A DNA stretch of 62,922 nucleotides, counting the filler, from Collodictyon triciliatum (taxonomy: Eukaryota), in the NCBI GenBank assembly GCA_043381765.1. It is 9 parts of 9 records of this genome, joined end to end, with 100 filler letters (N's around TTAATTAATTAA, not from the genome) between each part and the next. Parts side by side here need not be neighbours in the genome. Positions count along the whole stretch, not along the records: positions 15,814 to 23,620 come from JBHJMP010003731.1; 8 more parts are not named here. One strand, written 5' to 3'. A program made the position numbers and the translations under genes. Of the stretch, positions 19,350-23,465 are shown piece by piece; the first letter of the stretch is position 1; each line of letters begins with the position of its first letter. Under the pieces are notes generated by a model. The model had not been told where the DNA came from. It saw only the letters and a list, made by a program, of their open reading frames with translations, and did not search any database.

Positions 19350-22300
19350 TTAACTAGGACCAAGGGGAAAGTCCTTTTTGCTCAGTGGTCTCATTTCATA
19401 GAGTTTCCATTTCGTCGGATTGCCCTTGAAAAAAGGGAGAACCAAAGCATCGCACACGAAATAAAATAACCATGTTGAATTCATTCCAATAAGCAGTACA
19501 GTAACCCATGTTTTGGAGTCAAGGAATGTCGACATAAGTGCCAGGAAAAATGACACAAAAATAACGTAAAGGCTACTAAGTTCCATTTGATTTTCAATTT
19601 TCGTCTTATATGGCCTGAATTCCTTCTGCATCCAAATGGAGCTCTATATTTCGGGGTTAAAGAAAAGAATACATATATATATATGTATTTTTACCACATT
19701 TAACATAGCTTATAAAAAGAGGATTAAAGAGCTAATCATACCTGAATAACAATAACTAGCAATAGAAAGAATACGGAGGGACTGGTGTACGGAATGGCAC
19801 TGGTTATGAAAGAAAAGGCTATGCGACGGGCTATGATGACAAATTCCCAATACTTGAAGCTCTACATAATACATACGAATATTAGTTCGCCACGTCTTTG
19901 ATTTGAAAATTGTGGCATATAAATAAATTGAAATATACCTCCTTGTAAGGCAAGTACAAAAATCCGTATCTTGCTCCAGGTTCATATCCATGTTTTTCTG
20001 ACATTATTCTTACCTTCCAGCATATGAAAGCAGGCAAGCCCAAAATAAAGAAAACAAAAACAGGTATTGACAAACGAAGCAATTGGTCATACTCATGCGT
20101 CGTTGGGGTACATTGAACCCAGGGAGCGTTATTGAGGTACCATTTATTTCTGCCGTTGTCGTGGATAGTGCAGCCAAAGGCACCAAAGACTCCGCTGGCA
20201 ACCGAGTAGTAAATGAAAAATAAAAGATTCAAAGTAATGAAAACTACCTATGAAATCATAATGTTATTGTATTACTGGAAACATAGCAATTAAAAGAAAA
20301 AAATGAGGGTAGCGATCATGATCATTTTTCAATGATGGTGTACTTTAACACAGTTTAAAATTTAACAAATTACTCTACTTTGTTTCGCATATGCCCGTGT
20401 CCAAAGTAGTAAAATACCCACCCTGAAAATAAAAACAACGGAATTCTTATAAAACTGAACGATAGGTAATCAAACATACTGTCCAGTCCAAGAACGCAAG
20501 AAAGGTTTGGAAACTGAATTGATCCAATTGACGAGGATACATCTATAAATTTGCTTGATGCATCTGACAGAACAATCCCAGATGATATGATGGACAAAGT
20601 TTGCATATGAAACATAGCGATTCTGAGAGTAGCTAATATGCCGATTTGAGTGTTAGCCAACATGTTTTTTTTNNNNNNNNNNNNNNNNNNNNNNNNNNNN
20701 NNNNNNNNNNNNNNNNNNNNNNNNNNNNNNNNNNNNNNNNNNNTTTTTTTTTTTTTTTTTTTTTTTTTTTTGTTATTTTTATTATTATTATTTTTAGTAT
20801 GGATAACAAAATAGTAGCTTACCTGATTTCGACGTTTCAGTGAGATAGAGATATCCTATGAACGCGCAAAATCCGACGATACCGAGAGTTAAGTACAGGT
20901 ATATGTTCGATTCATTGCATTTCACACAAACTCGTCCCTGATTGCCATATCCTGCCTTACACTTTGAACACGCATGTCCTTCGTACCCATTTTCGCAAAA
21001 TTGAGTGATCTGAACTGTTTCATTGGATTTCGAAACCCTGTCTGGGATATATGTTATGCATGATTCTGGGCGTGGGCATTGAATAATGTATCGGACTGCA
21101 GCCACGCTTGGGGAGGCGTAGCAAAACTTCATCGTTCTCCCGTCAATACATTCACATTCCCTTGGACAAGGAGCACAATTATCTCCAAACCCAAAATATC
21201 CGGGGAGGCACCTGCAGAACTCATAGTCATAGTATTTTGGATTGATTTCTACGCGCGATTCCGTCGGACCAGAATTAGAGATTATGGTTGGACAAAGGAA
21301 GAATTTTGACTCATTCTCCAAACTAAAAGGGGTCTTGTACTCCATAAAGTCTGGCAAGAAATTAGCACTCCCGTGCTCCATACGTGTATTACTAAGCCCA
21401 AAGTATTCGAGCTTTGAAAATTTGTTGTAGGATTCTGGGATACTTCCAAAAATCGGATTTCCGGAGAGATCAAGATGCGTCCACTTCAACAAAGTTGTAA
21501 GTTCATCCAACTTTGTTATCAAGTTATTTTTCAGACTAATTGTTTTGGAGTTTTTCACAAAGTTGAAAACTCTCCAATTCAACTCTCCATAAAGTTTGTT
21601 ATCGTCGAGCAATAAATCTTCATAATTGTACTCAAAATCTTCAGATATTGGAACAATAAAAGTACCGACATCACCAGAGAATGAATTGTTCCTCAAGTCT
21701 ATAGAAATAAGGTTGTCCAGGTTCCAAAGATGATTGGGGATGCGACCGGAAAATCGATTGTGAGACACAACAAGAGATTTTAAGTGAATGAGATCCTCGA
21801 AGTACTTTGGAATGCTGCCACTGATTTCATTTCTGGACAAATCGATATATTGGACATTTTCTATACCCCAATCACCAGGAATAGACCCACTTATTTTGTT
21901 CTCACTTATATCCAATATAGTAAGATATGATAATTGAAATGAGGGAAGAGTTCCATGCAAATTGTTCCTAAACAGTATTAGTTCTCTTAAATTTGGAGAG
22001 TTTTCAAAAGTTGGAACTAAGCCCGTCAACACGTTATCGTAAGCTGAAAAGTATTTCAAATCTCTTATTCCAGAGAAAGTTGGAATGGTTCCTATTTTTT
22101 TTTAATTTTTTGCATGAATAGCAGGTCAATATATCCTATTATACTGATTTTTAACTTAAACAACTAACCGTTTAATCCATTGATTGAGATAAAAATTTTT
22201 TTGACCAAGGGAATTTCTTGGAAGTCTGGAATAGTTCCTATATTAATTTTTTTTTTTTTAAAAAAAAATTTAATTGATTTTTTCTTAAAAACTCTGCTAA

Positions 22301-23465
22301 TGATATATCGGTTACCACTTAGCCGATTGCTCGAAAAATCAATATGGTTTAAAACAGTAAAGTTCCGAAATTTGGGGATGGTTCCTAATAAAATTTTATT
22401 TTTGGTTTTATTCTGCTCATTTTTATCAAAATACCTATTAATGCTTTCTCTGTAGATACAACACATTTCAATATACAATTATTATTACCACTGAGTTGAT
22501 TGCTATACAAATATATTCGGTAAATAAAAGGAGTCAAATCCATTTCCGGAATCGTACCTTTGATAAATTTGTAAAAATAAGCCTCAAATACATGATATTT
22601 TATTCCTGTTGTTAATTTCCTTGAAAGAGATGCTTACCACTCAATTGGTTATTTCCAAAATCAATCCAGATAACATTCGGAATATTTTTGAATCCTGGAA
22701 TGGTACCTAAACTCCAGAACACAAAATTAAGGATTTATTTTTATTATGTTAATTTTAATAAGACATATTTTCATGTCCTATTTTAATCTGACTGCCATGA
22801 GGAAGACAAACCGGATAGTAGATTGCTGAAGAAGCTGAAAATTAAGATATTTGGTGTATGCTCAAAGTGTGGAACCGAGCCTATGAAAAAAATAATAGTT
22901 TCTGTGACCGAACATCAACAACATATTTTTTTTTGTTTGTAAGGTTACTGACCAGTTAGTTGGTTGATATTTAGCAATATTATATTTAAATTTGGAATAC
23001 TGTCGAACTCTGGAATTGTCCCTGCAAAAATATAGAGAAAAATTAGTCGTTTTTGAAAAAAAAAGATTCCTTGAAACTACCTACCGATTAATTGATTGGC
23101 TCCAAGCATAATCCATCTAACCAATGGAATACTCTTAAAGTTTGGAATAGATCCTTAAAATTAAAAAAAGAAGAAGAAGAAAATGAGTACATGAGCATGT
23201 ATATGGTTAAATCAGTAAACAATATTTAACATGTCCCTTTGAAAAATAATAAAGGTAACAACCGTTTAATTTGTTGTTAAATAGTGCCAAAATTTTCACA
23301 TTAGGAATATGTTTAAAGTCTGGTATTGTTCCTAGATGAAAAAAAAAGCGAATGAGTGGTAATACACAAAATCTGTGTGGTACATGCAACACTTACCTAT
23401 TAATTGATTAATTGATATATCAATGAATAGTAGATTGACAGTCTTGCTAAAGTCTGGTATTGAAC
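19350..23465 (-). CDS. LRR + Cys-rich + multipass membrane receptor-like protein, 5'-partial
   Basis: Nine 69-nt LRR exons (22169-23465), then a large exon 20823-22091 (plant-type GxIPxxxxxLxxLxxLxLxxNxxxG LRRs + Cys-rich + TM1). TM exons carry LRIAMFHMQTL, WYLNNAPWVQC, YGFLYLPYKE|SFKYWEFVIIARR and RPYKTKIENQMELSSL. Confidence 0.88.

What the first reader, a model, noticed from the sequence alone, without database searches (positions are those of the whole stretch)
22169..23465. Array of nine exactly 69-nt, phase-symmetric LRR cassette exons with hypervariable surface residues in a membrane receptor
Seen: exons 23397-23465, 23263-23331, 23085-23153, 22953-23021, 22812-22880, 22638-22706, 22489-22557, 22316-22384 and 22169-22237 are each 69 nt and phase 1-1. 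Each encodes one repeat, G(S/T)(I/V)PxFxxxxxxxxxxxxxNxLx. The scaffold is conserved, but the concave beta-strand differs in every exon (LLFIDIS, VKILALF, VRWIMLG, LNIILLN, ILIFSFF, VIWIDFG, IYRIYLY, LNHIDFS, VKKIFIS). The C-terminal LRRs lie in one large exon, and the array continues into a gap. Known: one-repeat-per-exon LRR arrays allow frame-preserving skipping, duplication and shuffling, as in brown algal ROCO LRRs and plant ERECTA-type receptors. Inference: a combinatorial ligand-recognition (prey, pathogen or self/non-self) receptor system in a protist.
Basis: partly seen in the sequence, partly recalled or inferred. Interest (0 to 1): 0.8.

Follow-up and report, generated by a model that had tools for sequence, protein, structure and literature searches.

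The report
One-repeat-per-exon LRR receptor gene
Nine tiny, equal-sized exons each encode one leucine-rich repeat of an expressed protist surface receptor, but the available RNA shows them spliced together in fixed order, so this looks like an old conserved gene layout rather than a combinatorial recognition system.

Summary
Nine 69-nt, AG/GT-flanked, phase-1 exons on the minus strand each encode one 23-aa LRR.

They belong to a 14-exon partial gene (23465 to 19321) that reads through as 954 aa. Its parts are at least 19 LRRs, a Cys-rich stalk and a roughly 9-helix membrane module. Spliced, polyadenylated contigs of run X1 confirm six introns. One 1,056-nt contig joins exons 4 to 9 and the large exon in genomic order.

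The only close relatives are at least 18 Diphylleia rotans transcript clusters with the same architecture. Their truncated isoforms break exactly at the Gly that starts a repeat, at 5 of 5 sites. They also break at all four of the window's stalk/membrane intron positions. The layout is therefore old and conserved.

Evidence against a combinatorial system:
- the exons are only 54% identical to one another;
- the introns are unrelated, and no decayed exon copies were found;
- 0 of 93 isoform pairs differ by a 23-aa cassette.

A weak excess of substitutions on the concave face (11/760 versus 5/1063 sites, p=0.04) remains a lead only. Verdict: a new variant of a known kind, of moderate interest.

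The parts
23621..23720 (.). Assembly gap (N44-TTAATTAATTAA-N44) that hides the 5' part of the gene: signal peptide, N-terminal cap and at least 1-2 further LRRs.
   Evidence: WIN residue 1 aligns to residue 243-297 of the full-length D. rotans proteins P0133, P0138 and P0146, which carry signal peptides and an LRRNT_2-like cap.
23397..23465 (-). LRR exon 1 (visible), 69 nt, phase 1-1.
   Evidence: No RNA cover.
23263..23331 (-). LRR exon 2, 69 nt, phase 1-1.
   Evidence: No RNA cover.
23085..23153 (-). LRR exon 3, 69 nt, phase 1-1.
   Evidence: No RNA cover.
22953..23021 (-). LRR exon 4, 69 nt, phase 1-1.
   Evidence: Its last 10 nt are the loose end of X1 record 5, joined to exon 5.
22812..22880 (-). 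LRR exon 5, 69 nt, phase 1-1.
   Evidence: Joint 22706/22812 in X1.
22638..22706 (-). LRR exon 6, 69 nt, phase 1-1.
   Evidence: Joints on both sides in X1.
22489..22557 (-). LRR exon 7, 69 nt, phase 1-1.
   Evidence: Joints on both sides in X1.
22316..22384 (-). LRR exon 8, 69 nt, phase 1-1.
   Evidence: Joint 22384/22489 in X1. The joint to exon 9 is implied only by the length of record 5.
22169..22237 (-). LRR exon 9, 69 nt, phase 1-1.
   Evidence: Joint 22091/22169 in X1.
20823..22091 (-). Large exon (1269 nt, phase 1 at both ends). It holds two more regular 23-aa LRRs, about 8 irregular LRRs, the Cys-rich stalk with a DUF7630-like cap, and the first membrane helix.
   Evidence: X1 contigs cover it.
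20633..20822 (-). Intron that contains the assembly gap 20673-20743, so no exon is lost there.
   Evidence: X1 record 4 joins 20823 to 20632.
20379..20632 (-). Membrane-module exon (helices 2-3 and an extracellular loop with a conserved Cys).
19939..20247 (-). Membrane-module exon (helices 4-5, Cys-bearing beta-hairpin loop, GFLYxxYKE motif).
19742..19861 (-). Membrane-module exon (YWE..RR motif, helices 6-7).
19350..19643 (-). Last coding exon (helices 8-9, cytosolic tail). The TAA stop is at 19350-19352.
19321..19349 (-). 3' UTR up to the poly(A) site.
   Evidence: A loose end of 15 T lies before 19321 in X1 record 1.

Best explanation
The nine 69-nt exons are ordinary, constitutively spliced coding exons of one expressed gene on the minus strand (23465 to 19321; its 5' end is lost in a gap).

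The protein is a surface receptor with four parts:
- an LRR solenoid of at least 19 repeats. The first 11 visible ones are regular 23-aa 'GxIPxF...LxxLxLxxNxL' units, and 9 of these have an exon each;
- a Cys-rich stalk;
- a juxtamembrane DUF7630-like cap;
- a membrane module of about 9 helices, belonging to a very large protist family that overlaps Pfam PF06011 ('TRP').

The one-repeat-per-exon layout places a phase-1 intron inside the Gly codon that opens each repeat. It is an old, conserved gene architecture shared with the Diphylleia rotans paralogs. It is most simply a relic of array growth by tandem duplication of a symmetric exon.

Diversity in this family is encoded in the germ line, as many paralogs with different repeat numbers and sequences. 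It is not made by splicing.

Inferred, not shown: the solenoid binds an extracellular ligand, and the membrane module passes the signal on, perhaps as a channel-like element.
For: Gene model. All 14 exons have AG/GT borders and read through as 954 aa without a stop.

RNA.
- Contigs of run X1 show the introns 19644-19741, 20633-20822, 22092-22168, 22385-22488, 22558-22637 and 22707-22811, and a poly(A) end at 19321.
- Record 5 is 1,056 nt. That is 701 nt of the large exon, plus 5 x 69 nt, plus 10 nt of exon 4, which is exactly what inclusion of every exon predicts.

Age of the array.
- Over 36 exon pairs the mean nt identity is 0.54 and the maximum 0.64.
- The best intron-intron local score is 17, against a maximum of 18 in 200 shuffles.
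- No further exon-like hit lies in the introns or on the other strand.

Conservation in D. rotans.
- WIN aligns end to end, at 38-41% identity over about 930 aa, with D. rotans proteins.
- Truncated D. rotans isoforms diverge directly after the unit-opening Gly at 5 of 5 sites in the LRR array: P0135, P0139/P0140, P0147, the start of P0134 and the start of P0315.
- They also diverge at all 4 of the window's stalk/membrane intron positions: the end of P0134, P0127, P0001, and P0303/P0305.
- The retained sequence keeps Gly (G+GT) and begins with residues such as K-V, as a GTAAG-type donor would give.

No cassette variation. 0 of 42 and 0 of 51 isoform pairs have a 23-aa-multiple indel.

Family.
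- The membrane-module profile finds 15,185 representatives at E <= 1e-3.
- 9 of the 9 best non-query hits scanned carry LRRs.
- 10 of 10 looked up are D. rotans.
- Of 59 relatives scanned, 17 match DUF7630, 15 Ephrin_rec_like, 14 LRR, 12 PF06011 TRP and 9 TIG.
- The same module (BLASTP 6e-16) ends the neighbouring gene at 3042-6986, which has a different ectodomain.
Against: - Contigs show only the dominant isoform and cannot exclude rare skipping.
- X1 is labelled RNA only as a guess. Its splicing and poly(A) tail are my grounds for treating it as RNA.
- Trinity ORF sets can miss minor isoforms, and D. rotans is not the window's organism.
- Intron retention in D. rotans is inferred from protein divergence points, not from DNA.
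- One 12-aa indel inside an LRR region (P0305 versus its siblings) shows that some splice or allelic variation exists there.
- The 23-aa units show no positional conservation between WIN and D. rotans, and the array is the least conserved region: 32-35% against 33-43% elsewhere. Both fit fast evolution of the binding surface.
- Pfam does not hit the membrane module of WIN or of the D. rotans proteins directly.
- No solved structure resembles the model. Foldseek gives no hit at E <= 1e-3, and the best VIA Z is 6.5 at rmsd 7.9.
Confidence: 0.7

Rival explanations
1. One reading: the symmetric mini-exons are alternatively used (skipped or mutually exclusive), so that one gene yields many receptor isoforms, as reported for brown-algal ROCO genes.
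For: - All nine exons are 69 nt and phase 1-1, and each junction re-forms a Gly codon, so any subset can be skipped in frame.
- Brown-algal ROCO genes with the same design are reported to give up to nine splice variants (PMC11378527, passages).
- Extra non-standard joints exist elsewhere in this gene (20194>20379 and 19641>19833), so splicing is not perfectly uniform.
Against: - The one contig across the array contains every exon from 4 to 9 in order.
- 0 of 93 D. rotans isoform pairs differ by a cassette. The variation seen there is truncation or retained introns.
- The introns share no conserved element that could act as a selector or docking site. Their similarity equals that of shuffled controls.
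Confidence: 0.08
2. Evolutionary rather than somatic shuffling: the arrays of this family gain, lose and exchange single-LRR exons between paralogs at an appreciable rate, under diversifying selection on the concave face. That would make a fast-evolving recognition repertoire, as in the Ectocarpus model.
For: - D. rotans paralogs carry very different numbers of units. Core-motif hits run from 25 to 44 per protein, with a dominant 23- or 22-aa period.
- There is no positional orthology of units between WIN and D. rotans.
- The array is the least conserved region.
- Among near-identical D. rotans sequences, variable sites are 11 of 760 at concave x positions, 5 of 1063 at other x positions and 2 of 1109 at scaffold positions (odds ratio 3.1, p=0.039).
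Against: - Within this locus the copies are old (at most 64% nt identity), and there are no relic exons.
- The overall rate of differences in LRR units versus the rest of the protein is not significant (18/2932 versus 30/7721, p=0.14).
- The test is at protein level, on few sites, in another species, and was not corrected for the choice of position classes.
- The 7 differences between the X1 contigs and the window (6 of them non-synonymous) all lie outside the mini-exons.
Confidence: 0.17
3. The array is a dead or mis-assembled locus (a pseudogene or an artefact of scaffolding).
For: The gene is cut by one gap, and a second gap lies inside it. The neighbouring gene with the same membrane module has an in-frame TAG where Trp is expected.
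Against: The frame is open over 954 aa, all splice sites are canonical, the RNA is spliced and polyadenylated, and the internal gap lies in an intron bridged by RNA.
Confidence: 0.02

Closest known systems
Brown-algal (Ectocarpus, Saccharina) LRR-ROCO genes with one LRR per exon (PMC3341825 and PMC11378527; passages read)
   Same: - One LRR per exon, in the same register (the exon opens at the G of GxxP).
- All exons of equal length, with in-phase introns.
- A tandem array in a multigene family proposed to act in recognition.
   Different: - There the exons are 72 nt, described as phase 2, and encode cytoplasmic LRRs joined to a ROC-COR GTPase.
- There the exons include recent copies, inactivated or reversed LRR exons lie in introns, pseudogenes occur, and alternative splice forms and positive selection are reported.
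- Here the exons are 69 nt and phase 1, and the LRRs form an extracellular array on a multi-pass membrane module.
- Here the copies are old, there are no relics, and no alternative use was seen.
Vertebrate glycoprotein-hormone receptors / LGRs (exon structure as cited in PMC11378527, passage; the rest recalled)
   Same: An LRR ectodomain encoded by a row of small in-phase exons of about one repeat each, followed by a hinge and a multi-helix membrane domain encoded by larger exon(s).
   Different: - Those are seven-helix GPCRs.
- Here the model has about 9 helices and no GPCR match above noise.
- There is no sequence relationship outside the LRRs.
Plant LRR receptor kinases and receptor-like proteins (ERECTA/SERK-type exon structure: recalled, from no call)
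   Same: Plant-specific-type LRR consensus with GxIP; the best generic hits are plant LRR-RLKs and RLPs. There is an LRRNT_2-like cap in the D. rotans full-length relatives (P0146, E=0.001, below Pfam's cut-off).
   Different: The units are 23 aa, not 24. There is no single-pass helix and no kinase domain. The C-terminus is a multi-pass module.
Protist multi-pass proteins with a DUF7630 cap and a PF06011 ('TRP')-related membrane module
   Same: The stalk, cap and membrane module of this gene belong to this family. The profile finds 15,185 representatives. Of 59 relatives scanned, 17 match DUF7630 and 12 match PF06011. The nearest clusters in the ESM Atlas carry PF06011. LRR-bearing members also occur in Gefionella okellyi and Thecamonas trahens.
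   Different: Most members scanned carry other ectodomains: Ephrin_rec_like, TIG, OpuAC or beta-helix. Pfam does not hit this gene's own module at threshold. No member is functionally characterised in anything I read.
Apicomplexan and ciliate CRMPs (cysteine repeat modular proteins; PMC9670195, passages)
   Same: By analogy only: a large extracellular binding region on a membrane domain predicted to have nine helices, proposed to sense cell contact and trigger a response.
   Different: Homology was not tested, because no CRMP sequence was available to me. The ectodomains differ.

Membership tests
Leucine-rich repeat, plant-specific-type (LxxLxLxxNxLxGxIP) | Repeat consensus with an Asn ladder and GxIP | tested here: met
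   In 11 of 11 regular units, G1, P4, N20 and L22 are invariant. Pfam LRR_1, LRR_8 and LRR_4 match the large exon at E of 1e-16 to 1e-18.
Symmetric one-repeat-per-exon cassette array | Equal exon length divisible by 3, the same intron phase on both sides, canonical splice sites | tested here: met
   9 of 9 exons are 69 nt, phase 1-1 and AG/GT-flanked. Four of the introns are seen in RNA.
Ectocarpus-type dynamic LRR exon shuffling system | Recent, near-identical exon copies within or between loci | tested here: not met
   Within the locus, the maximum is 64% nt identity over 36 pairs. Between loci this could not be tested, because no genome is held.
Ectocarpus-type dynamic LRR exon shuffling system | Inactivated or reversed LRR exons in introns | tested here: not met
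   nhmmer with the exon profile finds nothing in the introns or on the other strand. The best extra hits have E >= 0.88 and lie inside the large exon.
Ectocarpus-type dynamic LRR exon shuffling system | Alternative splicing that changes LRR content | tested here: inconclusive
   It was not seen in the X1 contig or in 93 D. rotans isoform pairs. Contigs and assemblies miss rare forms.
Ectocarpus-type dynamic LRR exon shuffling system | Positive selection at concave-face positions | tested here: inconclusive
   A protein-level proxy only: 11/760 against 5/1063 variable sites, p=0.039. No codon data were available.
Ectocarpus-type dynamic LRR exon shuffling system | ROC-COR GTPase partner domain | tested here: not met
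   No such domain is present. The C-terminus is a multi-pass membrane module.
LRR receptor kinase | Single-pass helix plus cytoplasmic protein kinase domain | tested here: not met
   There is no kinase hit in WIN or in full-length D. rotans relatives. About 9 helices are modelled.
Pfam PF06011 TRP-like membrane module | Match to the PF06011 profile | tested here: inconclusive
   There is no direct hit for WIN pieces, P0138 or P0146. 12 of 59 profile-found relatives match, the best at E=2.6e-14, and the Atlas neighbours carry it in 12-25% of members. The link is therefore transitive only.
Pfam PF24633 DUF7630 juxtamembrane Cys cap | Match to the DUF7630 profile before the first helix | tested here: inconclusive
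   WIN large exon: E=0.019, 15.6 bits against a cut-off of 27. Neighbouring gene: 18 bits. 17 of 59 relatives match at E <= 1e-3.
Seven-helix GPCR (LGR-like) | Seven-helix GPCR fold | tested here: inconclusive
   AF2 model of the P0122 C-terminus: pLDDT 74.6 and about 9 long helices. GPCR chains appear only at Foldseek E >= 0.13 with TM about 0.16. The best VIA Z is 6.5, within the tool's stated noise range for helical models.

The most novel reading that the evidence does not exclude
LRR ectodomains mounted on a DUF7630 cap and a TRP-like nine-helix module form a large, undescribed family of surface-recognition receptors in the predatory flagellates of Diphyllatea. Sparser members occur in malawimonads and apusomonads.

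In this reading, the conserved phase-1, one-LRR exons are the device by which arrays expand, contract and exchange repeats. The concave face evolves under diversifying selection. This would be an innate prey or self/non-self recognition repertoire that arose independently of the plant, animal and brown-algal ones, possibly with low-level cassette skipping on top.
Probability: 0.2. Interest if true: 0.65.

Novelty: new variant of a known kind. Interest (0 to 1): 0.38.

Why it matters
One-LRR-per-exon arrays are known from brown-algal ROCO genes, from vertebrate hormone receptors and, as I recall, from plant receptor kinases.

This case adds an independent example in a deep-branching lineage (best relatives: Diphylleia, CRuMs). 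The unit size (69 nt / 23 aa) and the phase are different, and the receptor chassis (LRR, DUF7630 cap, TRP-like multi-pass module) is one I found described in no paper.

The family is large in D. rotans, and its gene architecture is conserved. It is therefore a candidate for how these predators sense prey or partners. It also shows that symmetric repeat exons can persist for a long time without being used combinatorially.

Tried and rejected
- Whole genome of the window: none is held. Paralogous arrays and exon sharing in the same genome could therefore not be searched.
- Metagenome contig scan with the family alignment: 212 pattern matches, none confirmed by tblastn.
- Sequencing runs: no listed holder is on record as RNA. 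X1 is 'RNA?' by the tool's guess. X2-X4 (freshwater, lake and soil metagenomes) hold only small, identical pieces. There is no contig cover over 22940-23480.
- Word-based protein search on the neighbouring gene's membrane module: only 2 hits.
- Sequence search of solved structures with that module and with profile A3: 0 hits at E <= 1.
- NCBIfam: nothing relevant.
- Fold searches of the membrane-module model: no Foldseek match at E <= 1e-3. The best VIA-wide match is Hrd1, Z 6.5, rmsd 7.9, inside the tool's stated noise range for helical models.
- Positional orthology of single repeats between WIN and D. rotans: no diagonal signal. Offset means are 0.30-0.42 against overall means of 0.34-0.37.
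- Literature searches for general statements on one LRR per exon and intron phase: 0 papers each.
- A kinase, a ROC-COR domain or a GPCR as the signalling part: considered and not found.
- A relationship to CRMPs: only recalled, not tested.
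Full report
**1. Observation**

Each is preceded by AG and followed by GT, and each encodes one 23-residue repeat. Each exon starts with the last two bases of a Gly codon and ends with a G, so every intron is phase 1 and every junction re-forms Gly. 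Nothing else in the 62.9-kb window scores below E = 0.88.

**2. The gene**

Joining these exons to the downstream ones gives 14 exons with canonical borders and an open frame of 954 aa, ending in TAA at 19350-19352. I first placed the start of the large exon one base off. The sequence and the RNA joint put it at 22091.

The large exon (22091-20823) adds two more regular 23-aa units, about eight irregular LRRs, a Cys-rich stalk and the first membrane helix. Four further exons encode the rest of a multi-pass module.

Run X1 carries spliced contigs with a 15-T loose end at 19321, that is, a poly(A) tail on the minus strand. I therefore treat it as RNA, although the tool labels that a guess. Its joints confirm the introns 19644-19741, 20633-20822, 22092-22168, 22385-22488, 22558-22637 and 22707-22811. 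The second of these contains the gap 20673-20743, so that gap hides no exon.

The 5' end is lost in the scaffold gap 23621-23720. By alignment to full-length relatives, about 240-300 residues are missing: the signal peptide, the N-terminal region, an LRRNT-like cap and one or two repeats.

**3. Is the array used combinatorially?**

X1 record 5 is 1,056 nt. It lies on 21391-22090 with its letters 1-700 and on 22810-22881 with letters 976-1047, and it ends in nine letters that match the 3' end of exon 4. The arithmetic is 701 nt of large exon, plus 4 x 69, plus 69, plus 10, which equals 1,056. That fits inclusion of exons 9, 8, 7, 6 and 5 and a join to exon 4, in genomic order.

The exon 8/9 joint itself was not listed, because a low-complexity stretch was skipped. 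It is implied by the length only. Exons 1-3 are not covered. Contigs drop rare variants, so this shows the main form, not the absence of others.

**4. Age and relics**

- Over 36 pairs, the nine exons are on average 54% identical in DNA, with a maximum of 64%. They are 43% identical in protein.
- The nine introns (63-109 nt) are no more alike than shuffled controls: best score 17, against a shuffle maximum of 18.
- There are no extra, decayed or reversed LRR exons.

These are the hallmarks that define 'highly dynamic exon shuffling' in Ectocarpus ROCO genes (PMC3341825, passages), and they are absent here.

Two other LRR genes in the window (14154-15368 on the minus strand, 52535-53542 on the plus strand) carry many repeats in a single open frame. 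The mini-exon layout is therefore a property of this gene family, not of LRR genes in this genome.

**5. Relatives**

- A word-based search with the large exon gave one full-length-type hit (40% identity, 100% cover) and otherwise generic plant and bacterial LRR proteins.
- A search with the C-terminal part of that hit gave 8 clusters, all from the EukProt Diphylleia rotans transcriptome.
- An exhaustive profile search with the membrane module gave 15,185 representatives at E <= 1e-3, 5,650 at 1e-10 and 173 at 1e-30.
- The 9 best non-query hits scanned all carry LRRs, and 10 of 10 looked up are again D. rotans.
- WIN aligns with them end to end at 30-41% identity. No representative exceeds 41%, so the window's own protein seems not to be in that library.
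- Weaker relatives with LRRs come from Gefionella okellyi and Thecamonas trahens. In the latter the protein is named 'Hcr2-0B' by its source. Relatives with other ectodomains come from Platysulcus, Clastostelium and Rigifila.

I infer that the window comes from a relative of Diphylleia. I did not check this with housekeeping genes.

**6. Conserved architecture**

Truncated D. rotans isoforms agree with their full-length siblings up to, or from, a point and then run into unrelated residues and a stop. In the LRR array this point is directly after the Gly that opens a unit at 5 of 5 sites:
- P0135 against P0133, at residue 265;
- P0139 and P0140 against P0138, at residue 367;
- P0147 against P0146, at residue 273;
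- the start of P0134 against P0133, at residue 356;
- the start of P0315 against P0162, at residue 884.

A retained phase-1 intron explains this. G plus GT still reads Gly, and the next residues (for example K-V) fit a GTAAG-type donor.

The four stalk/membrane intron positions of the window each have such a counterpart: the end of P0134, P0127, P0001, and P0303 together with P0305. This is inference from proteins, not DNA, but it is consistent at 9 of 9 sites. A tenth divergence point, P0297 against P0153, lies in the N-terminal cap, which the window lacks.

The one-LRR-per-exon layout therefore predates the split of these sequences. The isoform variation that is visible is intron retention or truncation. 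0 of 42 pairs and 0 of 51 pairs differ by 23 aa or a multiple of it. The exceptions are a 12-aa indel in the LRR region of P0305 and a block of insertions in the membrane region of P0143.

**7. Variability**

- Between repeats, the x positions vary as in any LRR.
- Between WIN and D. rotans there is no positional conservation of units.
- The mini-exon array is the least conserved region: 32-35% identity for the full-length comparisons, against 33-43% elsewhere. Among D. rotans paralogs the figures are 42% against 51-59%.
- D. rotans paralogs differ widely in unit number.
- In eight groups of near-identical D. rotans sequences, variable columns were 18 of 2,932 in annotated units against 30 of 7,721 elsewhere (p=0.14).
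- Within units they were 11 of 760 at concave x positions, 5 of 1,063 at other x positions and 2 of 1,109 at scaffold positions. Concave against other x gives an odds ratio of 3.1, p=0.039.

For the last count I dropped columns with gaps and columns in windows with more than 6 mismatches in 21. This is a lead, not a selection test.

The 7 differences between the X1 contigs and the window (6 of them non-synonymous) all lie outside the mini-exons.

**8. The membrane module**

- Pfam gives no direct hit. The cap before helix 1 matches DUF7630 weakly.
- Of 59 relatives (those of the 150 best that are 450-1,150 aa long), 17 match DUF7630, 15 Ephrin_rec_like, 14 LRR, 12 PF06011 'TRP' and 9 TIG.
- ESM Atlas neighbours carry PF06011 in 12-25% of members.
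- The gene at 3042-6986 in the same window ends in the same module (BLASTP E=6e-16) behind WD40 and 11 Ephrin_rec_like repeats.
- An AF2 model of the P0122 C-terminus (pLDDT 74.6, pTM 0.72) has about nine long helices and a Cys-bearing beta-hairpin loop.
- No solved structure matches it.

The module is thus a widespread protist chassis that carries interchangeable ectodomains. What it does is unknown. A channel-like or contact-sensing role is inference. It rests on the Pfam name and on the analogy with CRMPs (PMC9670195, passages), whose homology to this module I could not test.

**9. Verdict**

The gene is real, expressed and a receptor. The combinatorial interpretation is not supported by what could be tested.

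The design is a new variant of a known kind: 69 nt, phase 1, an extracellular array on a TRP-like multi-pass module, in a deep-branching lineage.

My searches found no paper that describes this receptor architecture. That covers only the held library.

Noticed in passing
window 3042-6986 (+): A long open frame encodes WD40 repeats, 11 Ephrin_rec_like (GCC2/GCC3) repeats, a DUF7630-like cap and the same multi-pass module as the LRR gene (BLASTP E=6e-16). It is interrupted by one in-frame TAG at 3849-3851, exactly where the WD repeat consensus expects Trp (..TLKV*NL..). This could be a nonsense allele, a pseudogene or a sequencing error. WD40 repeats in a presumably extracellular position would be unusual.
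   Followed up: partly
window 14154-15368 (-) and 52535-53542 (+): Two further LRR genes of the 'typical' LxxLxxLP type have 9-15 repeats in a single open frame, without the mini-exon layout.
   Followed up: partly
window 20194-20379 and 19641-19833 (-): X1 contigs also show two non-standard joints. One is an alternative acceptor 53 nt inside exon 20247-19939, which shifts the frame. The other is a CT..CT joint that skips 191 nt. Both have only 30 letters on the shorter side. They could be minor splice forms, paralog cross-matches or assembly noise.
   Followed up: no
window 23509-23620; gaps at 7808-7907, 15714-15813, 23621-23720 and others: An (ACAT)n microsatellite of at least 112 nt fills the intron upstream of the first visible exon and runs into the gap. 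Nine of the window's gaps have the form N44-TTAATTAATTAA-N44, which marks scaffold joins of unknown size.
   Followed up: no
window 23910-24490 (-) and 17145-18127 (-): The neighbours of the LRR gene look like a longin/VAMP7-type SNARE (upstream, its 3' end also lost in the gap) and an EF-hand/calmodulin-like gene (downstream). I named both by eye from the ORF translations, not by a search.
   Followed up: no
window 19364-21610 (-): The X1 contigs differ from the window at 7 exonic places, and 6 of these change the amino acid (L951F, V758I, N754Y, V702I, Q567R, D414E). This is a high share, but the numbers are too small to interpret, and the contigs may come from another strain.
   Followed up: partly
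window 9086-10119, 18245-19181, 37480-38478 and others: Many long low-complexity tracts (TTC/GAA-, AAG-, and CAA/ACA-type microsatellites) produce spurious long ORFs on both strands.
   Followed up: no
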